38,727 bases of DNA from an uncultured Anaerolineales bacterium (GCA_964597105.1 CAZQXX010000004.1:1-38727), one strand, 5' to 3'. Shown: positions 21,163 through 37,804, counted from the first letter of the stretch. Notes: generated by a model not told the origin, from the letters alone. Numbers and translations are program-made.

Positions 21163-21204
21163 AAAAAACCAAGAGGTTGAGGGACTCCTCATTCCACCTC
21201 TTGG
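21163..21204 (-). terminator. rho-independent terminator after tRNA-Gly
   Basis: On the minus strand, CCAAGAGGT pairs with ACCTCTTGG (9 bp), plus an inner 5-bp stem TGAGG/CCTCA with an AGTC loop, followed by TTTTTTGTTTG. Confidence 0.85.
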
Positions 21205-21213
21205 CTCTGAGAG

Positions 21214-21286
21214 AGCGGGCGACGGGACTCGAACCCGTAACCTTTTCCTTGGCAAGGAAACGTTCCACCAATTGAACTACGCCCGC
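21214..21286 (-). tRNA. tRNA-Gly (anticodon GCC)
   Basis: Hand-folded from the minus strand. Acceptor stem GCGGGCG/CGCCCGC; D stem GTTC/GAAC; anticodon stem TTTCC/GGAAA with loop TTGCCAA; T stem ACGGG/CCCGT with TTCGAGT loop; discriminator U. CCA is not encoded. Confidence 0.95.
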
Positions 21287-21298
21287 TCGACGGTCAAG

Positions 21299-21326
21299 AT
21301 TATAGCACAAGTTCTGCAGGGTGCAA
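21299..21326 (-). promoter_or_regulatory. extended -10 promoter of tRNA-Gly
   Basis: Minus-strand TTGCAC (plus 21321-21326), 16-nt spacer, TGcTATAAT (-10 at plus 21299-21304). The mature tRNA 5' end lies 12 nt downstream of the -10 box. Confidence 0.6.
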
Positions 21327-21481
21327 GTCGGGCGCCACGTCAGCGGGCGACGGAGACCCCGGGCCGACGCGACCCAGCAGCGGGCTCTCGCCTCGCGCGG
21401 GTCCGGTGGTAGGAGAGGTCTTCGGTTCGGCGATTGACGACGGCCGTCCTTTATAGTACCATCGGCTCAAGGAGGAGCGAG

Positions 21482-22291
21482 ATGGCACATCGAAGGAGCG
21501 GGCACGCTGTTGCCTACAAGGGAGCCGGTGGCGCCGGCCCCAACGTTATCCGCGCGATTGTCATTGTCACTTGCGTGGCTGCTCTGGGCACGCTGGCCCG
21601 GGGGTTTGGACAGCCTGCCTCGACAGTGGAGAGCGCGTCAAATCCTGCCACTCCCACGGTTGGGCCGACGGCGGTCGCCACCCCGGAGCCCTCGGTGGTC
21701 GCCGATAACCCGGACCCGGCGCCAGCAGGAGAGACGGAGCCGACACCCGTGCCCCATATTGGGATCGTCGCTGGACACTGGCAGTTCGATCAGGGGGCAT
21801 CCTGTCCGGACGGCCTGGACGAGGTCGACGTCAATCTCGACGTGGCGGAGCGGGTCGTCCAGTCACTGCGGGATCTCGGCTACCAGGTCGATCTGCTGGC
21901 GGAGTATGATGACCGTCTCTCAGGCTATCTGGCCGACGCCCTCGTGTCCATTCACGCCGATTCCTGCGAGCGTCTCCACAATGCCACGCCTCCCCCTACC
22001 GGTTTCAAGGTCGCGAGCGTCGTGGACAGCTACGTCCCGGAGGAGGAGCAGCGCCTGGTCGCCTGCTTGCGCGACAGCTACGGCGCCCGCACGGGGATGG
22101 TGAGGCACGACAACAGCATCACGGGCCACATGACCCAGTACCACACTTTCTATGAGATCGATGGCCGCACGCCCGGCGCCATCATCGAGGCGGGTTTCCT
22201 CTGGCTCGATCGTGAGTTGCTCACCCAGCGCCCCGACCTGGTGGCTCAGGGGATTGTGGACGGGATCGTCTGCTTCATCGAGGGAGACTGA
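21482..22291 (+). CDS. N-acetylmuramoyl-L-alanine amidase (Amidase_3 family), secreted
   Basis: Amidase_3 blocks GIVAGHWQFDQGA, VSIHADS and IIEAGFL. N-terminal TM/signal segment. ATG at 21482 is preceded by AAGGAGGAG. Confidence 0.85.
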   Translation: MAHRRSGHAVAYKGAGGAGPNVIRAIVIVTCVAALGTLARGFGQPASTVESASNPATPTVGPTAVATPEPSVVADNPDPAPAGETEPTPVPHIGIVAGHWQFDQGASCPDGLDEVDVNLDVAERVVQSLRDLGYQVDLLAEYDDRLSGYLADALVSIHADSCERLHNATPPPTGFKVASVVDSYVPEEEQRLVACLRDSYGARTGMVRHDNSITGHMTQYHTFYEIDGRTPGAIIEAGFLWLDRELLTQRPDLVAQGIVDGIVCFIEGD

Positions 22292-23099: not shown

Positions 23100-24125
23100 T
23101 CAGTTGATCTCCCGCCCCTCGTACTGCCGTCGGTAGTACTCCCGGTAGTGCTCGCCGCTCTTGATCGGTCGCCACCACCACTCGTTATCGACGTACCATC
23201 GCACCGTCTTCTCGATGGCGTCGGCGCAGGTGTGCGCCGGCTCCCAACCCAGGGCGCGGATCTTGCTTATGTCGAGCGAGTAGCGGCGGTCGTGGCCCGC
23301 GCGGTCTCGAACGGGCTGGATGAGGCTCTCCGGCTTCTCGAGCAACTCCAGGATCAGGTGGGTCATCTCGATGTTGGGCATCTCCGTGCCCGTGCCCACG
23401 TTGTAGATCCCGCCGATCTCGCCCTCGTGGAGCACCAGGTCGATTGCCTCGCAATGATCCAGCACGTAGTGGTAGTCGCGCACCTGCAGGCCGTCGCCGT
23501 AGAGGGGCAGCGGTTGATCGTCGATGGCGTTCGTGGTGAAGAGCGGGACCACCTTCTCCGGATACTGGTAGGGGCCGATGTTGTTTGCGCCCCGGGTGAT
23601 TGTGACCGGCAGATCGTAGGTCACGTGGTAGGCGTTGACCATCACGTCCGCGCTGGCCTTGCTGGCGGCATAAGGGCTTCGGGGCGCGATTGGGTCGCTC
23701 TCCTTGGAAGCCCCTTCGGGGACGTGACCGTAGACCTCGTCGGTGCTGATCTGATGGTAGCGCGCCAGTCCGAACTCCCGGGCTGCCTCCAGCAGCGTAT
23801 AGGTGCCGTAGACGTCGGTCTTGATGAACGCATCCGGGTCCATGATGGAGCGGTCGACGTGAGTCTCGGCGGCGAAGTTGACGATCGTATCCACGTCGTG
23901 GTCCTGGATCGCCTGCCTCACCTGATCGCCCTGACAGATATCCCCTCTGACGAAGGCGTACCGGTCGCCGAAGGTCTCCTCCACGTCCTTAAGGTTGTCT
24001 AGATTGCCGGCATAGGTCAGTTTGTCGTACACCACGACCCGGTAGTCGGGGTACTTCTCCAGCAAGTAGCGGGTGAAGTTAGAGCCGATGAATCCAGCGC
24101 CGCCCGTGATCAGCAGATTGCGCAC
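23100..24125 (-). CDS. rfbB: dTDP-glucose 4,6-dehydratase
   Basis: LITGGAGFIGSNF, YDKLTYAGNLDNL, the YAASKA catalytic Tyr/Lys block, and a C-terminus typical of RfbB. Start set to the GTG at 24123-24125 (VRNLLITGG), 6 nt after a perfect AGGAGG. The ORF-track start at 24254 adds 43 implausible residues. Confidence 0.9.
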   Translation of the reverse strand: MRNLLITGGAGFIGSNFTRYLLEKYPDYRVVVYDKLTYAGNLDNLKDVEETFGDRYAFVRGDICQGDQVRQAIQDHDVDTIVNFAAETHVDRSIMDPDAFIKTDVYGTYTLLEAAREFGLARYHQISTDEVYGHVPEGASKESDPIAPRSPYAASKASADVMVNAYHVTYDLPVTITRGANNIGPYQYPEKVVPLFTTNAIDDQPLPLYGDGLQVRDYHYVLDHCEAIDLVLHEGEIGGIYNVGTGTEMPNIEMTHLILELLEKPESLIQPVRDRAGHDRRYSLDISKIRALGWEPAHTCADAIEKTVRWYVDNEWWWRPIKSGEHYREYYRRQYEGREIN

Positions 24126-24187
24126 CAGAGACCTCCTGTCTCTCCACATCAATGCCCGGAGGGGGCATTCGAAGGTATTGGGGAACG

Positions 24188-24215
24188 ATTCTACCACAAG
24201 CCCCCGCTGCGACAA
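24188..24215 (-). promoter_or_regulatory. extended -10 promoter candidate for rfbB-ttcA
   Basis: Minus-strand TTGTCG (plus 24210-24215), 16-nt spacer, TGgTAGAAT (-10 at plus 24188-24193). The roughly 55-nt leader contains hairpin AATGCCC/GGGCATT (24151-24169). Confidence 0.5.
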
Positions 24216-24217
24216 CC

Positions 24218-24245
24218 TTGACTTGACCGTTGGACGTGCTATCAT
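24218..24245 (+). promoter_or_regulatory. extended -10 promoter candidate for the TPR-to-Wzy-like operon
   Basis: TTGACT (24218-24223), 16-nt spacer, TGcTATCAT (-10 at 24240-24245). It sits back-to-back with the rfbB promoter. GAGGA lies 7 nt before the ATG at 24271. Confidence 0.55.
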
Positions 24246-24270
24246 TGTCCCCACCTATGAGGATCAACAG

Positions 24271-25776
24271 ATGTATCTAGGATCACGACCCAGAAAGCGC
24301 CGTTCCTCTGTCTGGCGTGTATTGACGCTCCTGATATTGATCGGTATCGCTCTTTATGTCCTGGTCCAGGTGAACCAGGCACCTGTCGAGTCGGCGGTCG
24401 TTCCCACGCCGACGCCCACGCGTCACCCGTCGTCCTACTTCACGGAGGCGGAGGAGCTATACCAGCAGGGAGATCTACGGGGGGCCATCGCTGCGTACGA
24501 GCAGGCACTAGAGCTCAACCCGGGCAGAGTGGAGGCACGGATCTCCCTGGCTCGCCTGCTGGCCCTCGATGGGCGGACGAGCGAAGCTGTGCAAGTCGCG
24601 CAGCGGGCTGTGGAGCGGGCGCCGGAGAACGCCGATGGGTGGGCCGTTCTCGGCATGGCCTACGACTGGCACGGTCAGGTCGATCGCGCCCTCGAGGCCT
24701 GCCGGCACGCGATCGACCTCACGCCAGACCATGCGGATGCCCACGCCTATCTGGCCGAGGCTCACGTGGACTCGGGAAACTGGGCGGAGGCGACGGAGAT
24801 TGCCAGTAAGGCCCTGGATCTGGATGGCAACAGCGTGGACGTCCAGCGCAACTATGGCTACGTGATGGAGGTTCAGGGAAACTACACGGCGGCCATCGAG
24901 GCCTACAAGCGGGCGCTGGAGATCCATCCCAACCTGGCTTACCTCCATATCGCCCTGGGCAACAACTATCTGGCGCTCGGTGACGTCGGTGCGGGGATGA
25001 AGAGCTTCCAGCGGGCTACCGAGGTTGACCCGAAGAGCGTACGGGCCTACTATCGGCTGGGACGGGCCCACTATGAGCGTGGCGAGCTTGACCAGGCGCA
25101 GGAGGTCCTGGAGCAGGCGGTGGACGTCGATCCTCAGTTCGGGCTGGCCTTCGGCTACCTGGGCTTCACGTACTGGAGCCGCAGAAACTACGAGGAGGCC
25201 ATCCCGAATCTGGAGCGTGCCATCAGGCTCGAGTCCGCGACTGCGCGGCGTCGAGCCCGCCGGTTCTTCATTACGCTCGAGCCTGACGCGGGGCGCGTGA
25301 CGACCCCGTCGTCCTCCGTGGTGATGAGCGGCGACTTCGCTCCCCGGTCGCTCGGCGACGGCAATACCCTGCGCGCTGACCTGGAACCCCTGCCCCCGGA
25401 CGCTGGATGGCAGGAGGCCCGGGGGTCCGTGAGCCTGGACGCGCGCACCGGGGTCTACACAGTCACGCTGGAGAAGCCGCCTGAGGCCCGGCACGACGAG
25501 GTCTACGTGGGCTGGTTTGAGGGCGTGCAGGCCCTGACGGGCCATCCGCTGAGCACAGGACGGCTGAGCCTGAGCAATGGCGACTTCGAGGCGGCATTTG
25601 AGGCCGATCAGGTCCGCGGGCCGCGCATCGACTACTTCTACACCCTGGGCCTGGCCCACTTTTACCTCGATGAATGTGAGAAGGCTACCCCATTCTTCGA
25701 GGCGGCGCTTGAGATCGATCCGGAGGCTGAGAATGCGCTTCAGGGTATGCGACTCTGTCAGCAGGTGGAGGGATGA
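24271..25776 (+). CDS. membrane-anchored tetratricopeptide-repeat protein
   Basis: N-terminal TM segment (VWRVLTLLILIGIALYVLV), then at least 8 TPR units (for example AIAAYEQALELNPGRVEA, ALEACRHAIDLTPDHADA, AIEAYKRALEIHPNLAYL). A roughly 130-aa non-TPR insert precedes the last repeat. Start moved to the ATG at 24271. Confidence 0.8.
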   Translation: MYLGSRPRKRRSSVWRVLTLLILIGIALYVLVQVNQAPVESAVVPTPTPTRHPSSYFTEAEELYQQGDLRGAIAAYEQALELNPGRVEARISLARLLALDGRTSEAVQVAQRAVERAPENADGWAVLGMAYDWHGQVDRALEACRHAIDLTPDHADAHAYLAEAHVDSGNWAEATEIASKALDLDGNSVDVQRNYGYVMEVQGNYTAAIEAYKRALEIHPNLAYLHIALGNNYLALGDVGAGMKSFQRATEVDPKSVRAYYRLGRAHYERGELDQAQEVLEQAVDVDPQFGLAFGYLGFTYWSRRNYEEAIPNLERAIRLESATARRRARRFFITLEPDAGRVTTPSSSVVMSGDFAPRSLGDGNTLRADLEPLPPDAGWQEARGSVSLDARTGVYTVTLEKPPEARHDEVYVGWFEGVQALTGHPLSTGRLSLSNGDFEAAFEADQVRGPRIDYFYTLGLAHFYLDECEKATPFFEAALEIDPEAENALQGMRLCQQVEG

Positions 25777-25806
25777 CCTCGCCCGGCCGCTAGGGTGGGG
25801 CCGGAC

Positions 25807-26556
25807 ATGTCGATGATCCTCGTCTTCTTCTTGCTCGGTGTCTTGGTGGGCGGCATGGTCAATCGGCTCGGCTCAGACCTGCCGGCGCGGCGGCGTCCGA
25901 CGAGGCCCCATTGCCCGTATTGCGGGGAGGGGCGTCCCTGGTGGCAGTGGCTCGGCCTGTCTGCCTATCTGACCGGGCGGGCGGCATGCCCCTCCTGCGG
26001 GGCGCCCATTGGTCTGCGTCACCCTCTGGTGGAGATCGGCCTGGGCCTCACCTATGCCTATCTGTGGATGACGATCGACTCTTCGGTCAGGCTGGGTTTC
26101 TATCTCCTCTACAGCGCGATCCTTGCCCTCATCCTCGTCACGGATATCGAGCGCCGCCTGATCCTGAACGTGGTGACCTACCCGGCCATCGTCCTCGGTT
26201 TCGTCGCCAGTTTCTTCATGCCGGCCATGACCTGGTGGAACGCCCTCATCGGGGGAGGCGTCGGATTGGCCTTCTTCTTCATTGCGGCGGTGCTCGGCGA
26301 CGCGCTATTTGGATCGGGGGCGATGGGGGGCGGTGACGTGAAGCTGGCCGCCTTCGTCGGCCTGATCACGGGCTTCCCCCTCGTCATCGAGGCCATCGTG
26401 CTCACCATTCTGATCGGCGCGGCCGTCAGCCTGGTGCTCTTGATCACCGGGGCGCGCAGCATGGACGACTACGTGCCTTATGGTCCATTCCTGGTCGTCG
26501 GCGCGGTCATCACGCTTCTCTGGGGTTATCCCATTGCTGAATGGTTCCTCTCCTAG
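25807..26556 (+). CDS. prepilin peptidase (A24 family, PilD-like)
   Basis: N-terminal zinc-finger CPYCG...CPSCG, polytopic membrane core, and the catalytic-Asp block GMGGGDVKLAAFVG. The start is either the ATG at 25807 or the GTG at 25795. Confidence 0.85.
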   Translation: MSMILVFFLLGVLVGGMVNRLGSDLPARRRPTRPHCPYCGEGRPWWQWLGLSAYLTGRAACPSCGAPIGLRHPLVEIGLGLTYAYLWMTIDSSVRLGFYLLYSAILALILVTDIERRLILNVVTYPAIVLGFVASFFMPAMTWWNALIGGGVGLAFFFIAAVLGDALFGSGAMGGGDVKLAAFVGLITGFPLVIEAIVLTILIGAAVSLVLLITGARSMDDYVPYGPFLVVGAVITLLWGYPIAEWFLS

Positions 26557-27461
26557 ATAGGGCCCCCCCGCCTGACCACATTCTGCCCTGGCTCCTTGAG
26601 CCCCGCAACCCCTCGGCCCGCTATCTGGCTCTGACCCGGCTGCTCGGCCGTCCTGGTGACGATCCTCAGGTTCTGGCCGCTCGAGCCGCCATCCCGCGGG
26701 CCGGTCCCGCTCGCGATATCCTCCGTGCTCAGTACCCTCAGGGCTACTGGATGCACCCTGGTATCGGCCATAGTCCCCGCTGCCGGGCCACCCTGTGGCA
26801 GATCCTGTTCCTGGCCCAGCTCGGCGTGGGGCGCGGCGGAGCGCTGGATCGCGCCGTGGAGCATCTGTTTAGGGCGAATCAGCGCGAGGACGGCGCCTTC
26901 CGCGCCAGCAAGGAGCAGAGGGATACGCCCGCCTGTCTCAACGGCAGTCTCCTCTGGGCTCTGGAGACCCTCGGCTTCGGAGAATCTCCGCCGGTGCGCC
27001 GGGCCTGGTCGTGGCTGGCGGAGACGGTGGCCGCGCACGGGATCGAGGGGACGTACCCCGACGGTCAGGCCTGCCCCTGGGCGGGGGTCAAGGTGCTGTG
27101 GGCGACGAACGCAGTCCCGCAGCGTCGGCGCGCTGACGCGGTGCGGAGCCTGGCGCAGGCCGCTGCCGAGCGGCTGCTGGGCGGCGTGCCCCGTCCGGAT
27201 CGAGACGACGCCCGCTGGTTCCGCCTGACCTTCCCGCTGGCTCACACCGCCGATCTCCTCCAGTGGCTGGAGGTGCTGGTGGGTGCCGGCCACGGCGACG
27301 ATCCGCGCCTCGACGGTGCCCGCTCCTGGCTGGCTGAGAGGCGGCGCCCTGACGGCACCTGGTCGCTGGAGCGCACTCCCGGCAAGCAGTGGGCCCACTT
27401 CGGAGCGGTGGGGGAGCCGAACAAGTGGGTCACGCTCCGCGCCCTGGCCGTGAGCGCGTGA
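26541..27461 (+). CDS. prenyltransferase/squalene-oxidase-repeat-like (alpha/alpha-toroid) hypothetical protein
   Basis: The 306-aa ORF overlaps the pilD-like stop by 16 nt. Repeated aromatic/Gly blocks (GYWMHPG, DGAFRAS, DGTWSLE) resemble terpenoid-cyclase/prenyltransferase repeats. This assignment is by eye only. Confidence 0.55.
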   Translation: MVPLLDRAPPPDHILPWLLEPRNPSARYLALTRLLGRPGDDPQVLAARAAIPRAGPARDILRAQYPQGYWMHPGIGHSPRCRATLWQILFLAQLGVGRGGALDRAVEHLFRANQREDGAFRASKEQRDTPACLNGSLLWALETLGFGESPPVRRAWSWLAETVAAHGIEGTYPDGQACPWAGVKVLWATNAVPQRRRADAVRSLAQAAAERLLGGVPRPDRDDARWFRLTFPLAHTADLLQWLEVLVGAGHGDDPRLDGARSWLAERRRPDGTWSLERTPGKQWAHFGAVGEPNKWVTLRALAVSA

Positions 27462-27483: not shown

Positions 27484-29073
27484 ATGACCGACCGGCGAGC
27501 TGCGGACCTTGTCCCGCCGTCGGCGCCGGGGATTAAGCGGCGCCGGGTGGTCAGGTGGGGCCTCCTGCTCGCCGTGGTGGTGGGCGGTCTCCTGCGTTTC
27601 TACCGCATCAGCGATCAAGGTCTATGGATCGACGAGGCGTTCAGCCTCTGGCTAACGCGGCGTTCACTAACGGATATGGTCCGCTGGGTGTCGACGGTCG
27701 ATCACCACCCGCCCCTCTATTACGCCCTGTTGCACGGGTGGGTGCGCATCGTCGGTGACGCCCAGGGTGCTGTGCGGGCTCTGTCGGCGCTCCTCGGCAC
27801 GCTGACCATCCCCGTTGCCTACGCGCTGGGCCGGCGGCTGGCGGATGAGTGGGTCGGGTTGGCCGCAGCGCTGATTCTGGCCCTCTCGCCCTTCCACGTG
27901 CGGTTTGCGCAGGAGGCGCGCATGTACACCCTCCTCACCTGGAGCGTGTCGCTGGCCCTGTATGCGGTGCTGCGCCTGCTCGACCGTCGCGACGGAGGCT
28001 CCCTCGACCTTACCCCCGAGGCCCGCTTCCTCCCCTGGGCCGGCTACGTGGTCCTCACCGCGGTCGCGCTCTGGACGCATAACGCCGCCGTCCTCTTCCC
28101 GCTGTCGCTCAACCTCTTCGTCGCCGGCGCGGCCTTGATCGAGAGGGTCCGTGGGTCCGTCCGCCGCTCCCTCTGGTCACCCCCGTGGCTCCGGACGTGG
28201 GCGCTGGCCCAGGCGGCCGTCCTGCTCTTCTGGCTCCCCTGGCTGCCGTCGCTCATCAGCCAGGCTGTGGGCGTCTACCAGCGCTTCTGGCTCCCGGCGC
28301 CGACCCTGGGGACCGTGCTGAGCGTGGTCAGCGTCCTCCTGTGCGACTTCCTTCCGTTCCCGCTGGCCGTCATCGTCGCGGTGGACCTCGCCCTCATCGG
28401 TCTGGCGCTGCTCGGCCTCCGGCACCTGAGTCGGAGCAGGCTCCATGGTGCCATCCACGGAGCCCTTTTGTCGGTCGTCTTCCTGGTTCCTCTCATAGGC
28501 GAATCGGTCGTCAGTCTCTGGCGTCCCGTCCTCCACGCCCCGACGCTGATCTGGGCCTCGATCCCCGTGGTGTTGCTAGTCTCGGCCGGCCTGGGGGAGG
28601 TGAGGCAGCTTTTCTCTTCGAGGTGGGCCTTTCTTCTCGCTCTGGTCGCCGTGCTGGTGATCAGCGGGACCGGGCTGACCGGCTACTTCACCGGCTTCAC
28701 GAAGGAGGAGTGGGACGACGCGGCCTCCCTGGTCGCCGGGCGCGCCCAACGTGATGATCTGATCCTCTTCCACGACGCCTGGGGCCAGATACCCTTTGAC
28801 TACTACTTTCGCGACCGGTACAATGGGCCGGTGACTGCCCACGGGGTCCCGGTGGATTTGTTCGATCGTGGCGTGCTAGAGCCGGAGATGACGGAGGATG
28901 ATCTCCCGCGTCTGCGCGCCCTCGTTCGGGGCCACGACCGGGTCTGGCTCGTGTACAGCCACGAATGGTACACGGACCCCCAGGAGCTGGTGCCGGCCGC
29001 GCTCGACGAGGAGATGGTCCTGCTCCGGCGATGGGAGTTTCAGGGCGTGAAGATCTTGTTATACGGGCGCTGA
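27484..29073 (+). CDS. GT-C fold glycosyltransferase (GT39/ArnT-like, PMT_2-type)
   Basis: LWIDEAFSLW and DHHPPLYYALLHGW in the first loops are hallmark motifs of ArnT/PMT-like enzymes. About 11 TM segments, with a C-terminal soluble domain. Confidence 0.8.
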   Translation: MTDRRAADLVPPSAPGIKRRRVVRWGLLLAVVVGGLLRFYRISDQGLWIDEAFSLWLTRRSLTDMVRWVSTVDHHPPLYYALLHGWVRIVGDAQGAVRALSALLGTLTIPVAYALGRRLADEWVGLAAALILALSPFHVRFAQEARMYTLLTWSVSLALYAVLRLLDRRDGGSLDLTPEARFLPWAGYVVLTAVALWTHNAAVLFPLSLNLFVAGAALIERVRGSVRRSLWSPPWLRTWALAQAAVLLFWLPWLPSLISQAVGVYQRFWLPAPTLGTVLSVVSVLLCDFLPFPLAVIVAVDLALIGLALLGLRHLSRSRLHGAIHGALLSVVFLVPLIGESVVSLWRPVLHAPTLIWASIPVVLLVSAGLGEVRQLFSSRWAFLLALVAVLVISGTGLTGYFTGFTKEEWDDAASLVAGRAQRDDLILFHDAWGQIPFDYYFRDRYNGPVTAHGVPVDLFDRGVLEPEMTEDDLPRLRALVRGHDRVWLVYSHEWYTDPQELVPAALDEEMVLLRRWEFQGVKILLYGR

Positions 29074-29156
29074 GGCACGGCTTCCATCGCGTGCCAGGTA
29101 AGTGCCTGTGCCCCGTCCGATCTCACGCTCTCGAAAAGCAGCAGCGATGTAATGCC

Positions 29157-29699
29157 ATGAAAGCATTCGTCGGTTCTAGAAACCCGGTCAAGATCGCCGC
29201 GACCCGCGCCGTGCTGTCCAGCATCTACCAGGACGCCGTCCGGGTTGAGTCGGTCGACGTGGAGAGCGGCGTGCCGGAGCAACCCTGGGGAGACGCGCAG
29301 ACGCTCCGGGGAGCGCGCCGGCGGGCACGGGAAGCGTTGCGGAGCCAGGGCGCGACCCTGGGCGTGGGGCTCGAGGCCGGCTTGATCGAGGTCGGGGGTG
29401 ACATCTTCACCTGCGCCTGGTGCGTCGTGCTCCACCGCGACGGTAGGGAGGGCGTCGCTGGAGGGGCTAACTTGCTCCTGCCACCGCCCGTGGCGGAGGC
29501 GGTCCGCGCCGGGGCGGAGCTCGGCCCGACCATGGATGCCGTGACCGGGCTCCGCAAGACCAAGCACGGACGGGGCGCCATTGGCATTCTCACCCGGGAG
29601 CATCTCGACCGCCAGTCGTCCTACGAGCACCTGCTCACACTCGCGATGGCCCGCTTCCTCTCTCCGGACTACTACGAGGATGGCAATGTGGGTGAGTAG
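29157..29699 (+). CDS. yjjX: inosine/xanthosine triphosphatase (YjjX/DUF84 NTPase family)
   Basis: N-terminus MKAFVGSRNPVKIAATRAVL and SGVPEQPWGDAQTLRGARRRA match the YjjX family. Start moved to the ATG at 29157. Confidence 0.8.
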   Translation: MKAFVGSRNPVKIAATRAVLSSIYQDAVRVESVDVESGVPEQPWGDAQTLRGARRRAREALRSQGATLGVGLEAGLIEVGGDIFTCAWCVVLHRDGREGVAGGANLLLPPPVAEAVRAGAELGPTMDAVTGLRKTKHGRGAIGILTREHLDRQSSYEHLLTLAMARFLSPDYYEDGNVGE

Positions 29700-32600
29700 T
29701 CTCTTGCGTGGCCGTCGTCGGCCCGAGGGAGCGCGCCGGTACCCCGCCATCCGTTGTCTGGTCTGGCTGGCGCTCCTGATCGCCCTGGTGCTGACTGGTG
29801 TGGAGGTCGTCACCGCCCACCGGAGGCGGGTCCAGTCCATCCCGCAGGGCTTCCCGGCCCCCGTGAGCGGGGCGGACGTGCCGACGCTCGGCGTCAACGT
29901 CTCGCTGGAGCAGTACGATGATCAGGATCTGGACGCGCTGCTGGGGCGCATCGCCGGGGATGGGTTCGTGTGGGTGCGCCAGTCGTTCACCTGGCACCAG
30001 ATTGAGCCCTCGGCCGGTGCCTTCGACTGGTCAGCGTCCGACCGGGTCGTCGAAGCAGTGGGCCGCTTCCCCGCGCTGCGACTCGTTGCCGTGCTCGAGG
30101 ACGATCCACCGTCTCCCCCTGACGATCCGCATCGGTTTGCCGCCTTCGCTGCTGCGTTTGCGGAGCGGTATGGCGACCGAGTGACGGCGTATCAGATCTG
30201 GGACGAGCCGAATCTGGCCGGCAATTGGGGCGGCGCCCGGGTGAGCCCCGCGGCCTACGCCGACCTCCTGACGCGTGCGGCCTCCGCCATTCGCGCCGCC
30301 GACCCGGACGCGCTCATCCTCCTGGCCGGCCTGGCGCCGACGACCGAGACCGGCCCCCAGAACCTGAGCGAGGCGCGCTACCTGGAACGGTTGTACAAGG
30401 CAGGCGCCGGGCCCGCCTTCGACGTCGTGGCTGCCAAGCCGTACGGGTTCGACACCGGGCCCTACGACCGCCGCGTCGACGAGTCGGTCCTCAATTTCTC
30501 CCGCATCTTGCTGCTGCGGCAGGTCATGGTCGAGCACGACGACGGGGACAAAGCGATCTGGGCCAGCCACTGGGGATGGAACGCCCTTCCGCAGGGGTGG
30601 GATGGGGGAACGTCGATCTGGGGGCAGACGGACGAGGAGACACAGGCGTCCTGGTCGGTGGCCGCGCTGGAGCGGGCGCGGACCGAGTGGCCCTGGATCG
30701 GGGCGATGATCATCGAGAACCTGCAGGCCGCTGGCCCTCTGACGACGGCGGACGGGGCGGTGCCCGGGGAGGAGCCCGGGGCGCCGCCCTACGATCCCCG
30801 CTGGGGGTTTTCCCTGCTTGGTCGTGACGGGTCCGCCCGACCCGTCTACGATGCGCTGGCCGCATGGCGACGGTCCCTGCCCGACGGTGCGCCCGTCGGG
30901 GGATATACCATGGACAGCCCGTGGACAGCGTACGAGGGGGACTGGCGTCTCGGGTCGGGAGGTGCTGATCCCGGGCCCGAGCCCGGGCCCGGGTCGGGGG
31001 TCACGGCTGAGAATCGGGCCACCTTCCGCTTCGATGGGACGCGCGTAGCCCTCAGCGTGCGGCGGGGTCCCTACCGCGGCTTCCTCGCTGTCACTGTTGA
31101 TGGAGAACCGGCCAACGCCCTCCCCCGCGACGAAGCGGGACGGGCGTATGTGGTCCTCTACGACCAGGAGCCGGGCCTGGCCACGGTGCCCCTGGTGACC
31201 GGCTTGGAGCCCGGTGGGCACACGGTGACGGTGGCGGTGGAGGGTGGGCACGGGGAGTGGCCCCTGGTCGACTGGCGGGTCGGCGCGACGCCGGTGCAGG
31301 ACGGCACGGCATGGATCTTGGGAGCTCTGGCGGTCGCCGCTCTCATCGTGGGCGCGCTCCTCCTGCTCGAGGCACGGCGGGTCGACTGGACGGGGCTGGC
31401 GGTCCGGTTTCGGGCGTGGCCCGAGTGGGGACAGGCGGGTCTGACCGCGGGGGTGGTGGGCGTCTTCTGGGGCGCGGTCTGGGTGGGCTGGGGCTCCTAC
31501 CCCGCTTACGATGGCTCCCTTAGTCTTGTCCCGGCGACCGGGCTCATCGTCGCGGGGCTGGCGCTGCCGGTCATGGGTTTCCTCTTCGCGCTCCGCCTCG
31601 ACCTGGGTCTGGCGCTCGTGGCCCTGTCCGCGCCCTTCTACCTGGTGCCCGACGCCATGGCCCATCAGGCTGTGAGCGTGCCCCAGATTTTGATCGTCCT
31701 GTGCGCGGTGGCCCATAGCCTGACGCGCCAAGCCCCGTCCTCTCGGCGGCTGTGGTCCCAGCATGTGTCGAGTCTGGCTCGGACGGGGACAGACCTCGCC
31801 GTCGGGCTCCTGCTTGCCGCGGCCCTGGTGGCGAGCGTGGCTGCCGATGATCGTGCCGCCGCCCTCTATGAGCTCTGGACGGTGTTCACGCCGCTGGCCC
31901 TCACCTACGGGCTACTGCGGCTGGCGCGGTTGGACCGGGAGGCCGAATGGCGGGTGGCAGACGGCTTCATTCTGGGAGGGCTCGCCGTCGCCCTCGTCGG
32001 GCTGGCCCAGCTCGCGCTGGGGCGTAACCTGGTGGTGGCTGAGGGAGGGCTGCCCCGTCTCCAGAGCGTCTACCATTCACCCAACAACGTTGGCCTCTAC
32101 CTGGGACGCGTCTGGCCGCTGCTGGCGGCCGTGGCGCTCGTGGGGAGCGGCCGGCGGCGCAAGCTGTACGCCCTGGCCCTGGTGCCGGTGACGGCCGCCC
32201 TCGTGCTCAGCCTCTCCAGAGGAGCACTACTACTGGGGGTTCCAGCCTCCATCGTGGTGATCGGCTGGCTCGCGGGAGGGCGCTTCCGTCGGCTGGCCGT
32301 CGCGCTGCTTCTGGTCGGCGCCGTGTCCCTGGTGCCGTTGCTCCGGCTGCCTCGTTTTGCCGCGTTGTTCGACCTGGGCGAGGGCACGACCTTCTTCCGC
32401 CTCAAACTGTGGCGCAGCACCCTCCAGATGATCCGCGAGCATCCCCTCTTCGGCGTCGGGCCGGGCAACTTCCTGCACGCCTATCGCACCCGCTACGTGC
32501 TGCCTACTGCGTGGGAGGAGTTCAACCTGGAGCACCCTCACAGCATCCTCCTCGACCATTGGACCCGTCTCGGCCTCCTGGGTCTCGTCGCGGGGCTGGC

Positions 32601-32805
32601 GGTCCAGGTCGCCTTCTGGCGGGCGGCCCTTCAGCGAGAGGAACGCGACCCGTTGATCTTGGGCCTGGCGGGAGGGATGGCGGCGCTATTGGCCCACGGG
32701 CTGGTCGACAACGCCGTCTTCTTCCCGGACCTGGCGGTGGCTCTGGCGCTGACCCTCGCGCTGGTTGGTCGGGGCAGGCGCCGGGACGCGGGGGAGCAGG
32801 GCTGA
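29686..32805 (+). CDS. large membrane fusion protein: N-terminal TM anchor, clan GH-A-like TIM-barrel domain, beta-sandwich domain and C-terminal O-antigen ligase/Wzy_C-like polytopic domain
   Basis: The GH-A-like block has YQIWDEPNLAGNWGG in the acid/base position, but KAIWASHWGWN where TE(F)GW is expected. The C-terminal part has more than 10 TM helices with LSLSRGALLLG and FGVGPGNF...LEHPHSILLDHW, typical of O-antigen ligase-like proteins. The ATG at 29686 follows GAGGA by 6 nt and overlaps the yjjX stop by 14 nt. Confidence 0.8.
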   Translation: MWVSSLLRGRRRPEGARRYPAIRCLVWLALLIALVLTGVEVVTAHRRRVQSIPQGFPAPVSGADVPTLGVNVSLEQYDDQDLDALLGRIAGDGFVWVRQSFTWHQIEPSAGAFDWSASDRVVEAVGRFPALRLVAVLEDDPPSPPDDPHRFAAFAAAFAERYGDRVTAYQIWDEPNLAGNWGGARVSPAAYADLLTRAASAIRAADPDALILLAGLAPTTETGPQNLSEARYLERLYKAGAGPAFDVVAAKPYGFDTGPYDRRVDESVLNFSRILLLRQVMVEHDDGDKAIWASHWGWNALPQGWDGGTSIWGQTDEETQASWSVAALERARTEWPWIGAMIIENLQAAGPLTTADGAVPGEEPGAPPYDPRWGFSLLGRDGSARPVYDALAAWRRSLPDGAPVGGYTMDSPWTAYEGDWRLGSGGADPGPEPGPGSGVTAENRATFRFDGTRVALSVRRGPYRGFLAVTVDGEPANALPRDEAGRAYVVLYDQEPGLATVPLVTGLEPGGHTVTVAVEGGHGEWPLVDWRVGATPVQDGTAWILGALAVAALIVGALLLLEARRVDWTGLAVRFRAWPEWGQAGLTAGVVGVFWGAVWVGWGSYPAYDGSLSLVPATGLIVAGLALPVMGFLFALRLDLGLALVALSAPFYLVPDAMAHQAVSVPQILIVLCAVAHSLTRQAPSSRRLWSQHVSSLARTGTDLAVGLLLAAALVASVAADDRAAALYELWTVFTPLALTYGLLRLARLDREAEWRVADGFILGGLAVALVGLAQLALGRNLVVAEGGLPRLQSVYHSPNNVGLYLGRVWPLLAAVALVGSGRRRKLYALALVPVTAALVLSLSRGALLLGVPASIVVIGWLAGGRFRRLAVALLLVGAVSLVPLLRLPRFAALFDLGEGTTFFRLKLWRSTLQMIREHPLFGVGPGNFLHAYRTRYVLPTAWEEFNLEHPHSILLDHWTRLGLLGLVAGLAVQVAFWRAALQREERDPLILGLAGGMAALLAHGLVDNAVFFPDLAVALALTLALVGRGRRRDAGEQG

Positions 32806-35752: not shown

Positions 35753-36469
35753 TCAGATCAGGCCCATCCAGCGGAGCGGCTCGTAGAAGAAGGCGGGGAG
35801 CACCCCGAGGGCGTCGAGCACGAACACGGAAGCGCAGGCCACGATGAGCAGGAGGACGAGGCAGCCGATCCCAGCCCACAGCCACGTTCGGTTTGGCTGC
35901 GCCTCTTCCTGGCGATAAGACGGCGCCGGGGTAGACGACGGCCGGCTATGGAAGCGCTCCGCCGGCTCTCCGGGGGGCGTCCGCCGCTCTGCTTCCACCC
36001 GCCGCTCCGCCTCCACCCGCTGCGGCGGGTACGCTTGCTCAGCAAGACGCGTCTGCTCAGCGGGCTCCATCCTTTCGGGAGGTTGATCGCGAGGAGGCCT
36101 CGGGGGCGGCGGGGGAACATGCGCCGGCCAGCCGGCCGGAAGAGACCGGCCGGCCTCTTCCGGCACCACCTCGTACCGGTAGACCAGCGCCACCGCTTCC
36201 CCCAGCTCAATCACGTCGCCCCGGGTCAGCGCTCGGGGCTGAGACAGGTAGGCGCCGTTGACGAAGGTCCCGTTCGTACTGTCCAGGTCCTCAATCACCC
36301 AGGTCCTCTCCTCCCGCGCGATGCGCGCGTGGTGCCGCGATACCTGGGGGTGGTCGATCACGACGTCGTTCCGGGGATCACGGCCAAGGGTGACGGTGTC
36401 CCCGTGCAGGCGAACTGTCTCGCCCGTTCGAGGCCCTCTGATCAGGACCAACTGGGCATCGTCTGTCAT
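35753..36469 (-). CDS. FHA-domain protein with Pro-rich linker and C-terminal TM anchor
   Basis: The N-terminal FHA domain reads VTLGRDPRNDVVIDHPQVSRHHARI...STNGTFVNG. The linker holds a tandem RVEAER x2. The C-terminal TM segment is WLWAGIGCLVLLLIVACASVFVL. The ATG at 36469 follows GGGAG by 7 nt. Confidence 0.85.
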   Translation of the reverse strand: MTDDAQLVLIRGPRTGETVRLHGDTVTLGRDPRNDVVIDHPQVSRHHARIAREERTWVIEDLDSTNGTFVNGAYLSQPRALTRGDVIELGEAVALVYRYEVVPEEAGRSLPAGWPAHVPPPPPRPPRDQPPERMEPAEQTRLAEQAYPPQRVEAERRVEAERRTPPGEPAERFHSRPSSTPAPSYRQEEAQPNRTWLWAGIGCLVLLLIVACASVFVLDALGVLPAFFYEPLRWMGLI

Positions 36470-36618
36470 TCTCACGCTCCCGTTTCGCTGGAGATCCGCG
36501 ACGTAGAGTCTCTCGTTGTCTGGCGACTGATGGTGTCTTTCGTCGGGATCTCGATCTCCGACCGGGCCGGATGGTGGGCCAGGGTCCTGCGCCAGGACAT
36601 TCCCAGAGCAGCCGTCCC

Positions 36619-36647
36619 AGTATACGCTTGGGGTGTGCAGTTGTCAA
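36619..36647 (-). promoter_or_regulatory. consensus promoter of the FHA-ssnA operon
   Basis: Minus-strand TTGACA (plus 36642-36647), 17-nt spacer, TATACT (plus 36619-36624). This predicts a 5' leader of about 140 nt. Confidence 0.65.
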
Positions 36648-36668
36648 ACAGCTTGCTTGTGGTACACT
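36641..36668 (+). promoter_or_regulatory. extended -10 promoter candidate of the dipeptidase-trmD operon
   Basis: TTGTCA (36641-36646), 16-nt spacer, TGgTACACT (-10 at 36663-36668). Its -35 hexamer overlaps the -35 of the divergent FHA promoter. Confidence 0.55.
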
Positions 36669-36748
36669 TGCCGCCCAGCGATCGGGGATCTGCCCCCGGT
36701 CGACTCTCACAGACGCCCTTTACACAGACCCGCCAGATGGAGCTCTTG

Positions 36749-37804
36749 ATGACCGTGATGATCGTTGACGCCCACGAAGATATTGCCTGGAACGTGCTTG
36801 CGCTGGAGCGCGACGTGCGCCGGAGTGCGCTGGAGACCCGCCGCCTGGAGGTGGGGACAGACGCCCCCCAGCGGAACGGGATCTGTATGGTCGGCGTGCC
36901 GGAGTGGCTTGAAGGGAACGTGGCCCTCGTGTTTGGCACGGTCTACGTGGCTCCGGCGGAACGGGGGAGGAGATCGGGACCCCAGGTCTACTCGAGCCGT
37001 GAGGAGGCCCACGCGTTGGGGCAGAGGCAACTCGATGTCTACCACCGCCTGGCGGATCAGGACGAGCGGCTGGCCCTCGTCGGCACCCGGGACGACCTGG
37101 ACGGGGTGCTCGACTCCTGGGAGGGCGAGTCGCCCGTGGTGGGTCTCGTCCCGCTCATGGAGGGGGCCGACCCGATTCGTGAGCCCGCTGAGGCGGAGTT
37201 GTGGTTCGAGCGGGGCATTCGCCTGATCGGGCTCTCCTGGAAGGCGGGGACGCGCTACGCCGGAGGTGACGCGAGCGGGGGCCGGCTCACGGATGCCGGG
37301 CGAGAGCTGTTGGACGTGATCGCCGATCTGGGCATGGTGCTCGACGTCAGCCACCTGGCGGAAGCGTCGTTCTATGAGGCGCTCGGCCGTTTCGAGGGCC
37401 ACGTAGTCGCCACCCACGCCAATCCTCGAGGCCTGGTGCCGGGAGCCCGTCAGCTCTCCGATGAGATGATCCACCGCCTGGCCGAGCGCGACGGCGTGAT
37501 CGGGATCGTGCCTGCCAATGCCTTCCTCCGTCCTGACTGGCGCACGACGCGACCGACGCTGGATGACGTCGTTGCTCTCATCGATCACGTTTGTCAGGTA
37601 GTCGGCGATGCCGCCCACGTCGGTCTGGGCTCCGATTTCGACGGCGGCTTCGGCGCCGACGATACCCCGCCCGAGCTCGATACCGTGGCCGACCTGCAGC
37701 GGATTGGACCCGCGCTGGCCCGGGCCGAATACGACGAGGAACACGTGGCAGCGATCCTGGGCGGGAACTGGCTGCGCGTCCTGGAGGATGCCCTGCCGGA
37801 CTGA
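36749..37804 (+). CDS. membrane dipeptidase (peptidase family M19)
   Basis: [45 protein letters not shown] and GLGSDFDGG match the M19 metal-ligand blocks. The ATG at 36749 follows GGAG by 6 nt; the ATGs at 36737 and 36758 are alternatives. Confidence 0.85.

What the first reader, a model, noticed from the sequence alone, without database searches (positions are those of the whole stretch)
29686..32805. GH-A-like domain with Glu-to-His at the predicted nucleophile, fused to a beta-sandwich and an O-antigen-ligase/Wzy-like membrane domain
The 1039-aa product has four parts:
- A signal-anchor.
- A TIM-barrel-like region. The acid/base motif is intact (QIWDEPN, Glu codon at 30205-30207). About 120 residues later, where clan GH-A enzymes normally carry IWxTE(F)GW with the nucleophile Glu, the sequence is KAIWASHWGWN (His codon at 30568-30570).
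- A beta-sandwich/CBM-like segment (about 30900-31290).
- A polytopic domain of at least 10 TM helices with Wzy_C-type motifs (LSLSRGALLLG, FGVGPGNF, EHPHSILLDHW).
A nucleophile-less retaining glycosidase cannot hydrolyse by the normal mechanism. It could bind glycan or act in transfer. Covalent coupling to a Wzy/WaaL-like polymerase or ligase suggests a single-polypeptide machine that captures and ligates or polymerises a surface glycan in a monoderm envelope. I do not recognise this combination as a characterised architecture.
Basis: partly seen in the sequence, partly recalled or inferred. Interest (0 to 1): 0.65.

Follow-up and report, generated by a model that had tools for sequence, protein, structure and literature searches.

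The report
Glycosidase-like domain fused to glycan ligase
This gene encodes a widespread but unstudied cell-envelope protein of Anaerolineae bacteria, in which a sugar-cleaving-type domain that has lost one catalytic residue is fused to a membrane enzyme of the O-antigen-ligase type, so it probably holds a surface glycan rather than cutting it.

Summary
ORF 29686-32805 encodes 1039 aa with four parts: a signal-anchor; a PslG-type (GH39-like) (β/α)8 barrel plus β-sandwich; a linker helix; and a ~14-helix Wzy_C/O-antigen-ligase-type GT-C domain.

Alignment to PslG puts Glu174 on the acid/base Glu165. It puts His295 on Glu276, the experimentally trapped nucleophile.

The fusion is not an assembly artefact. 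Full-length homologues occur in at least 595 species genomes, among the best 80 almost all Anaerolineae (Chloroflexota).

The Glu-to-His change is not a singular oddity. Among 140 diverse relatives, 42 keep both Glu, 74 lack the nucleophile (N/A/R/H/Q...), 16 lack the acid/base and 8 lack both. All states share the same conserved gene neighbourhood.

The cleft is still as conserved as the ligase core. The ligase domain keeps the WaaL residues that bind undecaprenyl-PP (Arg845, Arg905) and the proposed acceptor-activating His952.

Best reading: an active lipid-PP-glycan transferase with a covalently attached, non-hydrolytic glycan-handling module. This resembles a fused version of the PslG/Psl-machinery association. 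Function is inferred, not shown.

It is a new variant of known kinds and moderately interesting.

The parts
29686..29835 (+). Arg-rich cytoplasmic tail and signal-anchor TM helix (aa 1-50)
   Evidence: Helix 20-50 in the AF2 model. There are 6 K/R residues in aa 1-19, which fits the positive-inside rule.
29860..30885 (+). PslG-type (GH39-like, clan GH-A) (β/α)8 barrel, aa ~59-400
   Evidence: PslG matches at E 4e-14 (single sequence) and 1e-21 (profile). Foldseek's top hits are 5bx9, 9g17 and 4zn2. The model shows eight β/α units. In 120 homologues, 121 of 341 positions are at least 95% conserved.
30202..30207 (+). Asp173-Glu174: acid/base Glu in a D-E-P-N motif (PslG has N164-E165-P-N)
   Evidence: Alignment to PslG. 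Glu174 is invariant in 120 close homologues and is E in 122 of 150 diverse representatives. Codons checked.
30346..30348 (+). Glu221 (LAPTTETG), a conserved carboxylate on the loop after β5
   Evidence: Invariant in the close family. It aligns with a Glu of PslG. E or D is present in 81 of 82 nucleophile-less relatives and in 50 of 58 nucleophile-bearing relatives. The loop has pLDDT <50.
30568..30570 (+). His295 at the position of the catalytic nucleophile (PslG Glu276), at the end of β7
   Evidence: Alignments. In 120 close homologues the residue is H 109, Q 5, N 4, Y 1, P 1 and never E. In 150 diverse representatives it is E 59, N 22, H 17, A 17, R 13, Q 7 and others.
30886..31290 (+). β-sandwich accessory domain (aa ~401-535), equivalent to the C-terminal domain of PslG
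   Evidence: Strands at aa 405-533. The Foldseek alignment to PslG spans about 497 columns. A weak, sub-threshold CE2_N jelly-roll hit is also present.
31306..31380 (+). Linker TM helix (aa 541-565) returning the chain from outside to the cytoplasm
   Evidence: Helix 541-565, followed by Arg564/565/574/576.
31381..32805 (+). O-antigen-ligase-type GT-C membrane domain (Pfam Wzy_C, GT121-like). About 14 TM helices, with a large outside loop at aa 887-953. Includes the stop codon.
   Evidence: Wzy_C at 66.9 bits against a cut-off of 31.7. The family profile hits WaaL 7tpg_B at E 4e-5. The domain model has pLDDT 82 and pTM 0.85, and Foldseek's top hit is RodA 6pl6. Topology is inferred from helices and charges.
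32218..32220 (+). Arg845 (SLSRG), equivalent of WaaL Arg191 (binds Und-PP phosphate)
   Evidence: HMM alignment to 7tpg_B. The role of Arg191 is taken from PMC10920833. Invariant in the close family.
32398..32400 (+). Arg905 (FFRLKLW), equivalent of WaaL Arg265 (binds Und-PP phosphate)
32533..32541 (+). His950-Pro-His952 (EHPHS). His952 is the equivalent of WaaL His313, the proposed acceptor-activating residue.
   Evidence: Both His are invariant in the close family. H952 is H in all 80 GTDB loci.
27484..29073 (+). Upstream co-directional GT-C glycosyltransferase (PMT_2/ArnT-like), probably in the same operon
   Evidence: Pfam PMT_2 at 44 bits. The same arrangement occurs in 7 closely related loci, all His-type.
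28965..29699 (+). NTPase_I-T (DUF84) gene whose stop codon overlaps the target's start by 14 nt
   Evidence: Pfam E 1.5e-52. The overlap is visible in the sequence.

Best explanation
The gene encodes a genuine, conserved, bimodular envelope enzyme of Anaerolineae.

A signal-anchor helix and a second 'linker' helix pin a PslG-type GH39-like module (barrel plus β-sandwich) on the outer face of the membrane. A roughly 14-helix O-antigen-ligase-type GT-C domain follows, and its catalytic loop also faces outward.

The membrane domain keeps the two Arg that bind the diphosphate of the polyprenyl carrier and the His proposed to activate the acceptor in WaaL. It therefore most likely transfers a polyprenyl-PP-linked glycan onto a non-LPS acceptor. 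Less likely, it elongates the glycan.

In this clade the GH39-like module has His where the nucleophile Glu should be, so it cannot run the classical double-displacement hydrolysis. Its cleft is nevertheless strongly conserved. It most likely acts as a specific glycan-binding or glycan-handling module that holds the acceptor or the nascent product at the transferase site. That would make it a covalent version of the association between membrane-bound PslG and the Psl Wzx/Wzy machinery.

Shown: the domain identities, the residue equivalences, the conservation, the distribution and the fact that the fusion is real. Inferred: the topology, the binding role, the donor and acceptor, and ligase versus polymerase.
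For: - PslG homology, with E174 on the acid/base and H295 on the nucleophile.
- The fold is confirmed.
- Wzy_C scores above Pfam's threshold.
- The family profile hits WaaL 7TPG, with R845, R905 and H952 on R191, R265 and H313. The roles of those residues come from PMC10920833.
- The fusion is present in 120 full-length homologues and in at least 595 GTDB species genomes, including chromosome-scale assemblies.
- The catalytic dyad has been lost repeatedly. Among 140 representatives, 42 are EE, 74 lack the nucleophile, 16 lack the acid/base and 8 lack both. An NJ tree implies at least 17 and at least 14 switches respectively.
- The same conserved neighbourhood (G5-PD40 / target / Macro / UXS-like / second Wzy_C / GtrA / GT4) accompanies every state.
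- The GH-like barrel is as conserved as the ligase core (0.79 against 0.80 mean column conservation). Its cleft loops are 84-91% conserved. This argues for a working site rather than a relic.
- Positive-inside charges fit a topology with both the GH-like module and the ligase loop outside.
- Precedents: membrane association of PslG is needed for Psl synthesis (PMC6813494), and a bimodular O-ligase (WadA, GT25+GT121) is already known.
Against: - No biochemical data exist for any member of the family.
- 30% of relatives keep both Glu, so some members may be real hydrolases. A residual or non-classical activity in the His clade is not excluded.
- His, Gln and Asn at the site, with an invariant Glu174, could reflect altered chemistry rather than pure binding.
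- Only the -1 subsite equivalents of PslG are partly kept (N164->D173, D332->D370). The distal subsite residues have no counterpart, so the ligand is unknown.
- The relative placement of the two active sites could not be measured, because no coordinates or PAE were available.
- Foldseek of the membrane domain returned RodA rather than WaaL.
Confidence: 0.5

Rival explanations
1. The GH39-like domain is still a catalyst but uses a non-classical mechanism. The options are:
- substrate-assisted catalysis on a 2-acetamido sugar, using the adjacent Asp173-Glu174 pair;
- Glu221 acting as a relocated nucleophile;
- transglycosylation or an inverting mechanism with Glu174 as general base.
For: - Glu174 is invariant, and the residues around His295 (AIWASHWGWNAL) are invariant in the clade.
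- The motif is D-E-P rather than the usual N-E-P.
- A carboxylate at position 221 is retained in 81 of 82 nucleophile-less members against 50 of 58 nucleophile-bearing members (Fisher p = 0.004, not corrected for phylogeny).
- Each clade has its own fixed motif at the site (ASHWGW, AVEFGW, ATAFGW, AVRFGW, GSNFGW).
Against: - The nucleophile position takes chemically unrelated residues (A, G, R, N, H, Q, S) in proteins that share the same gene context. One alternative mechanism is hard to reconcile with that range.
- D173 is equally common in members that keep both Glu, and its association with nucleophile loss is not significant (p = 0.096).
- Glu221 is also present in PslG, where Glu276 is the proven nucleophile.
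Confidence: 0.2
2. The membrane domain is a Wzy-type polymerase rather than a ligase. The GH39-like module would then act as an in-cis chain-handling or chain-length device, like the PslG 'failsafe' next to PslJ.
For: - Pfam Wzy_C covers both ligases and polymerases.
- PslG works together with the Wzy polymerase PslJ (PMC13434223).
- A second, stand-alone Wzy_C gene sits two to three genes downstream in 15 related loci. The two could therefore divide the polymerase and ligase roles.
Against: - The closest solved relative by sequence is the ligase WaaL, and the Arg/Arg/His set is conserved.
- In the CAZy analysis, inverting polymerases of family GT126 carry Glu where ligases carry His (PMC10920833). 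This protein has His952.
Confidence: 0.2
3. The GH39-like domain is an evolutionary relic with only a structural role, such as folding, spacing or oligomerisation, and has no specific ligand.
For: Either catalytic Glu, or both, have been lost repeatedly.
Against: In 120 homologues, 121 of 341 barrel positions are at least 95% conserved. These include the cleft motifs and the loops on the catalytic face. That is as high as the ligase core.
Confidence: 0.07
4. The ORF is an assembly or annotation fusion of two genes, or the membrane domain is an IctB-like transporter rather than a glycosyltransferase.
For: NCBIfam's best hit is the IctB family model, at 61 bits.
Against: - The same ~1000-aa architecture occurs on hundreds of independent contigs from different sources, including Mb-scale scaffolds.
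- The IctB score is far below its cut-off of 366 bits.
- The WaaL catalytic residues are conserved.
Confidence: 0.02

Closest known systems
PslG of Pseudomonas aeruginosa (GH39 endoglycosidase of the Psl exopolysaccharide Wzx/Wzy pathway; PDB 4ZN2, 5BX9, 9G17)
   Same: - It is the best sequence and structural match.
- It has the same two-domain build: a (β/α)8 barrel plus a β-sandwich.
- It has an N-terminal membrane anchor and acts outside the cytoplasm.
- The acid/base Glu lies in an xEPN motif and the strand-7 motif is IW(S/A)xxWGW.
- It is functionally tied to a Wzy-type machine.
   Different: - PslG is a separate protein with both catalytic Glu (165 and 276) and proven endoglycosidase activity.
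- Here the nucleophile is His, the residue before the acid/base is Asp rather than Asn, and the distal subsite residues of PslG (His81, Asp83, Arg84, Tyr114, Asp133, Gln134) have no counterparts.
- Here the module is covalently fused to the GT-C enzyme.
- Identity is only about 21%.
WaaL O-antigen ligase (CAZy GT121, clan GT-C1; Cupriavidus metallidurans structure 7TPG)
   Same: - It belongs to Pfam Wzy_C.
- The family profile matches it at E 4e-5.
- Equivalents of Arg191, Arg265 (Und-PP binding) and His313 (acceptor activation) are conserved.
- It has a large extracytoplasmic loop before the last three helices.
   Different: - Chloroflexota are not known to make lipid A-core (my own knowledge), so the acceptor must differ.
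- This protein has two to three additional N-terminal helices plus a 490-aa ectodomain.
- The NCBIfam RfaL model is not matched (14 bits against 277).
WadA-type bimodular O-antigen ligases (GT25 + GT121; Brucella, Mesorhizobium)
   Same: An O-ligase-family membrane domain is fused to a soluble carbohydrate-active module. This suggests coupled action of the two modules on the same glycan.
   Different: The appended module there is an active Leloir glycosyltransferase (GT25). Here it is a glycoside-hydrolase fold lacking its nucleophile.
Pseudo-glycosidases used as binding modules (Klotho GH1-like domains, chitinase-like lectins, the SLC3 heavy-chain GH13-like ectodomain). Cited from my own knowledge, plus 'pseudoglycosidase' usage for Klotho in the papers found.
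   Same: A GH fold is retained with one catalytic carboxylate replaced. It is used for ligand binding or as an ectodomain partner of a membrane protein.
   Different: These are eukaryotic and unrelated families. None is fused to a polyprenyl-PP-dependent GT-C enzyme.

Membership tests
Clan GH-A / GH39 (PslG subgroup) | (β/α)8 barrel fold | tested here: met
   DSSP on the AF2 model shows eight β/α units. Foldseek's top hits are PslG, GH39, GH79, GH5 and GH30 structures with probability 1.00.
Clan GH-A / GH39 (PslG subgroup) | Significant sequence similarity to characterised family members | tested here: met
   PslG at E 4e-14 (phmmer) and 1e-21 (profile). GH39 β-xylosidases at 1e-4 to 2e-6.
Clan GH-A / GH39 (PslG subgroup) | Match to a curated family HMM | tested here: not met
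   Only sub-threshold Pfam hits were found: Cellulase/GH5 at 17 bits and GH42 at 14.5 bits. No Glyco_hydro_39 hit appeared at E<=1. dbCAN was not available.
Clan GH-A / GH39 (PslG subgroup) | General acid/base Glu after strand 4 (N-E-P motif) | tested here: met
   Glu174 aligns with PslG Glu165. The motif is D-E-P-N instead of N-E-P-N.
Clan GH-A / GH39 (PslG subgroup) | Nucleophile Glu at the end of strand 7 | tested here: not met
   His295 aligns with PslG Glu276. The position is never Glu in 120 close homologues.
Clan GH-A / GH39 (PslG subgroup) | Glycoside hydrolase activity | not testable with these tools
   Requires an enzyme assay.
O-antigen ligase family (Pfam Wzy_C; CAZy GT121, clan GT-C1) | Match to the curated Wzy_C model above its gathering score | tested here: met
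   66.9 bits against a cut-off of 31.7, over aa 831-969.
O-antigen ligase family (Pfam Wzy_C; CAZy GT121, clan GT-C1) | Two Arg that bind the Und-PP phosphates (CmWaaL R191, R265) | tested here: met
   R845 and R905 align to R191 and R265 and are invariant in the close family.
O-antigen ligase family (Pfam Wzy_C; CAZy GT121, clan GT-C1) | His proposed to activate the acceptor (CmWaaL H313) | tested here: met
   H952 aligns to H313, within LEHPH against LEHAH. It is invariant.
O-antigen ligase family (Pfam Wzy_C; CAZy GT121, clan GT-C1) | GT-C_B-type polytopic fold with an extracytoplasmic catalytic loop | tested here: inconclusive
   The helix pattern and positive-inside charges fit. Foldseek's best hit is the related SEDS protein RodA (probability 0.99, E 0.18), but WaaL itself was not returned.
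O-antigen ligase family (Pfam Wzy_C; CAZy GT121, clan GT-C1) | Ligation of Und-PP-O-antigen to lipid A-core | not testable with these tools
   The NCBIfam RfaL equivalog is not matched (14 bits against 277). The acceptor in Chloroflexota is unknown.
Wzy-type bacterial polysaccharide polymerases (e.g. GT126) | Conserved Glu at the position of the ligase His | tested here: not met
   The position is His952. The criterion comes from PMC10920833 and was described there for GT126 only, so other polymerase families are not excluded.
IctB family (TIGR00947) | Score above the equivalog cut-off | tested here: not met
   61 bits against a cut-off of 366.
WadA-type bimodular O-ligases | GT25 domain appended to GT121 | tested here: not met
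   The appended module is GH39-like, and no GT25 hit was found.

The most novel reading that the evidence does not exclude
The nucleophile-less GH-A module may be a natural 'glycosynthase'. Engineered glycosynthases are retaining glycosidases without their nucleophile. They couple an activated donor of the opposite anomeric configuration to an acceptor, using the remaining Glu as a general base.

A polyprenyl-PP-linked glycan is axially linked and has an excellent leaving group. Presented by the fused Wzy_C domain, it is that kind of donor.

On this reading the GH-like cleft (Glu174, with a cavity or His at 295) would take part directly in forming the new glycosidic bond, instead of merely holding a glycan. 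The relatives lacking the acid/base (Gln174 with Glu295) would be the natural counterpart of thioglycoligase-type variants acting on the same activated donor.
Probability: 0.06. Interest if true: 0.9.

Novelty: new variant of a known kind. Interest (0 to 1): 0.5.

Why it matters
Anaerolineae are abundant in sediments, wastewater sludge and hot springs, yet the chemistry and assembly of their envelope glycans are almost unknown. They carry 'O-antigen ligase' homologues despite having no known LPS.

This family is found in at least 595 species genomes and in 467 sequence clusters (50% identity) at E<=1e-30. It gives three things:

1. It is a Rosetta-stone fusion. It argues that PslG-type modules work physically together with Wzy/WaaL-type GT-C enzymes, a point still debated for Psl.
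2. It is a natural series in which either catalytic Glu of a GH-A domain has been replaced many times while the cleft stays conserved. That makes it a good system for asking how glycosidases turn into binding or transfer modules.
3. It offers a concrete target for identifying the acceptor of ligase-type enzymes in bacteria without LPS.

Tried and rejected
- **Assembly fusion.** Rejected. There are hundreds of independent full-length homologues.
- **Glu221 as a compensating nucleophile.** Judged unlikely. The same Glu is present in PslG and in 49 relatives that still have the strand-7 Glu. The geometry could not be checked, because the loop has pLDDT <50 and model coordinates are not exposed.
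- **Asp173 as a marker of substrate-assisted catalysis.** Asp173 replaces the usual Asn before the acid/base. It is family-wide and is not significantly associated with nucleophile loss (p = 0.096).
- **Single-sequence phmmer of the membrane domain against PDB.** No hits. Only the family profile reached WaaL.
- **Foldseek of the membrane-domain model.** It returned RodA at E 0.18 and otherwise noise, and did not list WaaL.
- **Pfam CE2_N hit in the β-sandwich.** It is sub-threshold and was treated only as 'jelly-roll-like'.
- **IctB transporter reading.** Rejected on score.
- **Literature searches.** I searched for the fusion, for PslG-like or GH39-like domains on ligases, and for pseudo-glycosidases in bacteria. 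None found a description of this architecture.
- **Neighbour conservation.** The window's own neighbours (PMT_2, NTPase, GAF, CBS) are conserved only in the closest clade.
- **dN/dS.** Not attempted, because synonymous sites are saturated at 55-70% protein identity.

Full report

Yes. The + strand from 29686 to 32805 is one uninterrupted reading frame of 1039 codons plus a stop. In-frame alternative starts lie at 29680 (ATG) and 29581 (TTG). A GAGGA-like stretch precedes the ATG pair. The stop of the upstream NTPase gene overlaps the start by 14 nt, which suggests one transcription unit with the PMT_2 and NTPase genes upstream.

**2. The N-terminal soluble part**

- A single-sequence search of all PDB sequences gives PslG of Pseudomonas aeruginosa (family GH39) as the best hit, at E 4e-14. 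A profile of 71 homologues raises this to 1e-21.
- In these alignments QIWDEPN lies on PslG's VWNEPN, and AIWASHWGW lies on AIWSTEWGW.
- Counting along the PDB chain, the two PslG glutamates are chain positions 139 and 250, that is, residues 165 and 276. These are the acid/base and the nucleophile. The nucleophile was trapped covalently by a cyclophellitol probe (PMC11912335).
- The AlphaFold2 model of the whole protein (mean pLDDT 80, pTM 0.71) has eight alternating strands and helices. Glu174 lies just after strand 4 and His295 is the last residue of strand 7. This is the geometry that defines clan GH-A.
- Foldseek against the PDB returns the three PslG entries first (E about 1e-13, roughly 497 aligned columns). 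Other GH39, GH79, GH5 and GH30 enzymes follow.
- The alignment length shows that the β-sandwich at aa ~401-535 is the accessory domain PslG already has, not an added CBM.
- Of the PslG residues that contact the bound pentasaccharide, only those at the -1 subsite have counterparts: N164->D173, E165->E174, E276->H295 and D332->D370. The last of these lies in a weakly aligned stretch. The -2 to -5 contacts fall in PslG insertions or are replaced. The ligand is therefore not Psl.

**3. The membrane part**

- Pfam Wzy_C matches aa 831-969 at 66.9 bits against a cut-off of 31.7.
- The single sequence finds nothing in the PDB. The family profile finds the O-antigen ligase WaaL of Cupriavidus metallidurans (7TPG) at E 4e-5.
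- In that alignment, SLSRG Arg845 lies on Arg191, FFRLKLW Arg905 lies on Arg265, and EHPH His950/His952 lie on His311/His313.
- According to the CAZy analysis of these enzymes (PMC10920833), Arg191 and Arg265 bind the phosphates of undecaprenyl-PP and His313 is proposed to activate the acceptor. Inverting polymerases of family GT126 have Glu where ligases have His.
- All of these residues are invariant in the close family.
- A separate model of aa 540-1039 (pLDDT 82, pTM 0.85) gives the SEDS polymerase RodA as its only meaningful Foldseek hit (probability 0.99, E 0.18). RodA belongs to the same GT-C clan. WaaL itself was not returned.
- Helix positions and K/R counts fit one topology throughout (inference):
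  - N-terminus in;
  - anchor helix;
  - ectodomain aa 51-540 out;
  - linker helix aa 541-565;
  - about fourteen further helices;
  - loop aa 887-953 out;
  - Arg-rich C-terminus in.
- Both the GH-like cleft and the ligase loop therefore face the outside.

**4. Is the fusion real, and how common is it?**

- The word-indexed protein search returns 120 full-length homologues of about 1000 aa at 56-70% identity. They come from JGI, NCBI, ENA and Logan assemblies. Where they are named, the name is 'O-antigen ligase family protein' from Chloroflexota, Anaerolineae or Thermoflexia.
The best 80 are almost all Anaerolineales, Thermoflexales, Aggregatilineales or Roseilinea, and some lie on Mb-scale scaffolds.
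- An exhaustive HMMER search with only the GH-like domain finds 467 clusters (50% identity) at E<=1e-30. Most of the best 150 are again about 1000 aa long and carry the HxH motif of the ligase domain.
- An assembly artefact is excluded.

**5. How special is the His?**

- Within the close clade, position 295 is H in 109 of 120 sequences. The rest are Q, N, Y or P, and Glu never occurs. Glu174 is invariant.
- In 140 diverse representatives the picture is different:
  - 42 keep both Glu;
  - 74 keep the acid/base but have N (20), A (15), R (13), H (11), Q (7), G, D, S or T at the nucleophile site;
  - 16 keep the nucleophile but have Q, N, A or S at the acid/base site;
  - 8 lack both.
- A neighbour-joining tree needs at least 17 Glu/non-Glu switches at the nucleophile position and at least 14 at the acid/base position.
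- Each clade has its own fixed local motif: ASHWGW, AVEFGW, ATAFGW, AVR(F/Y)GW and (G/A)(S/G)N(W/F)GW.
- Named Anaerolineae genomes include all of these states.
- So the classical dyad is dispensable for whatever this family does, and the His is one outcome among many.
- The domain is nevertheless not decaying. In the 120 close homologues the barrel has 121 of 341 positions at least 95% conserved, with mean column conservation of 0.79. This equals the ligase core at 0.80.
- The loops on the catalytic face are modelled with low confidence (175-183, 219-227, 255-269, 299-314). They are nonetheless among the best conserved segments, at 0.84-0.91.

**6. Genomic context**

- In the window, the gene follows a PMT_2-type GT-C glycosyltransferase and an NTPase on the same strand. 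GAF and CBS-ACT genes on the other strand come next. This arrangement recurs only in the closest, His-type relatives.
- In more distant relatives a different co-directional string is conserved:
  - a DUF348-G5-PD40 β-propeller protein immediately upstream (35 of 80 loci);
  - the target;
  - a Macro-domain protein;
  - a UDP-sugar epimerase/decarboxylase-like enzyme;
  - a second, stand-alone Wzy_C protein;
  - GtrA;
  - a GT4 glycosyltransferase.
- This string accompanies targets with E, H, N, A, S, G, D or Q at the nucleophile site. That argues that all of them do the same job.
- The context is envelope-glycan assembly. The G5 and DUF348 domains hint at a link to the cell wall (inference).

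**7. Most likely mechanism (confidence about 0.5)**

- The membrane domain is an active polyprenyl-PP-glycan transferase of the ligase type. It acts on a non-LPS acceptor. It is my own knowledge that Chloroflexota are not known to make lipid A.
- The PslG-type module is tethered at both ends next to the transferase. It binds the acceptor or the emerging polymer in its conserved cleft and presents or guides it.
- In the His clade it cannot hydrolyse by double displacement.
- This resembles a covalent form of the situation in Pseudomonas. There, membrane association of PslG is needed for Psl synthesis (PMC6813494), and PslG is proposed to police the chain made by the Wzy polymerase PslJ (PMC13434223).
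- It also parallels the known bimodular ligase WadA, which combines GT25 and GT121.
- Shown here: the domain identities, the residue equivalences, the conservation and the distribution.
- Inferred: the topology, the binding role, the donor and acceptor, and ligase versus polymerase.

**8. Rival explanations**

- *A non-classical catalytic mechanism (about 0.2).* Three points favour it:
  - Glu174 is invariant.
  - The motif is D-E-P.
  - A carboxylate at position 221 is retained almost without exception in nucleophile-less members: 81 of 82 against 50 of 58, p = 0.004, not corrected for phylogeny.

  Three points weigh against it:
  - The residues tolerated at position 295 are chemically very varied.
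  - The Asp173 association is not significant (p = 0.096).
  - Glu221 is also present in PslG.
- *A polymerase rather than a ligase (about 0.2).* This cannot be excluded. The downstream second Wzy_C gene in relatives would fit a division of labour.
- *A purely structural relic (about 0.07).* This is contradicted by the conservation of the cleft.
- *A fusion artefact or an IctB-like transporter (about 0.02).* These are rejected.

**9. Comparison with known families, and novelty**

- The N-terminal module works like, and is homologous to, PslG/GH39. It fails the defining nucleophile test and matches no curated GH HMM above threshold. I call it GH39-like, not a GH39 member.
- The C-terminal module passes the Pfam Wzy_C threshold and the Arg/Arg/His test of GT121 ligases. 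Its acceptor cannot be the canonical one.
- I found no paper describing a GH39-like/O-ligase fusion or the variability of its catalytic dyad. The CAZy survey of these GT families mentions only the GT25 fusion.
- The proteins themselves are already in public databases under a generic name.
- I rate it a new variant of known kinds, with interest 0.5.
- The most novel reading still open is that the nucleophile-less cleft acts as a natural glycosynthase on the lipid-PP donor (probability about 0.06).

Noticed in passing
window 1201-5673 (- strand) and 5892-8687 (+): A separate candidate exopolysaccharide cluster. It contains a GH26-like protein (1201-2355), a processive cellulose-synthase-like GT2 (2627-4345) and a second PMT_2-type GT-C (4228-5673). 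A 931-aa right-handed β-helix/DUF1565 protein lies next to it.
   Followed up: no
window 11008-13611 (- strand): An 867-aa DEAD/DEAH helicase with an MrfA Zn-binding domain. It also carries an HNH endonuclease domain at aa 699-753. This is an unusual insertion for an MrfA-like repair helicase.
   Followed up: no
window 17078-22291: A run of cell-wall genes: a YkuD L,D-transpeptidase (17078-18268), a PGA_cap/CapA-like protein (18289-19992), a small GT2 (20445-21164, -) and an Amidase_3 (21434-22291). tRNA-Gly lies at 21213-21286.
   Followed up: no
window 24073-27461: A TPR protein, a prepilin (type IV leader) peptidase and a 306-aa protein with weak prenyltransferase/SQHop_cyclase-like hits. 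They lie co-directionally upstream of the PMT_2 gene. The same order recurs in 3-4 close relatives.
   Followed up: partly
L036, L044, L049, L050, L056, L059, L064, L066, L073-L079 (related loci, genes -1 to +5 around the match): A conserved co-directional string in distant relatives: (PKD-PD40) / DUF348-G5-PD40 / target / Macro / UXS-like / second Wzy_C / GtrA / GT4. Further downstream there is often an AAA/Mg-chelatase-like gene, an FMN-dependent dehydrogenase-fold protein (possibly IPP isomerase type 2) and a polyprenyl synthetase. The window itself lacks the G5-PD40, Macro, second Wzy_C, GtrA and GT4 genes near the target.
   Followed up: partly
window 30208-30234, 30340-30366, 30448-30492, 30580-30627 (aa 175-183, 219-227, 255-269, 299-314): Four loops on the catalytic face of the barrel are predicted with pLDDT <50, yet they are 84-91% conserved across 120 homologues. 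They may become ordered only on binding a ligand or the membrane domain.
   Followed up: partly
representatives P0217, P0219, P0229-P0233, P0242, P0251, P0254, P0264, P0269, P0270: A whole clade of the fusion family has Arg at the nucleophile position (motif AVR(F/Y)GW). This reverses the charge in the -1 subsite and could indicate recognition of an anionic sugar or phosphate.
   Followed up: no
window 35948-37804 (+) versus 35753-36475 (-): The long ORF containing the M19 dipeptidase domain (Pfam match at aa 267-613) overlaps the FHA-domain gene on the opposite strand. The dipeptidase probably starts much later than 35948.
   Followed up: no
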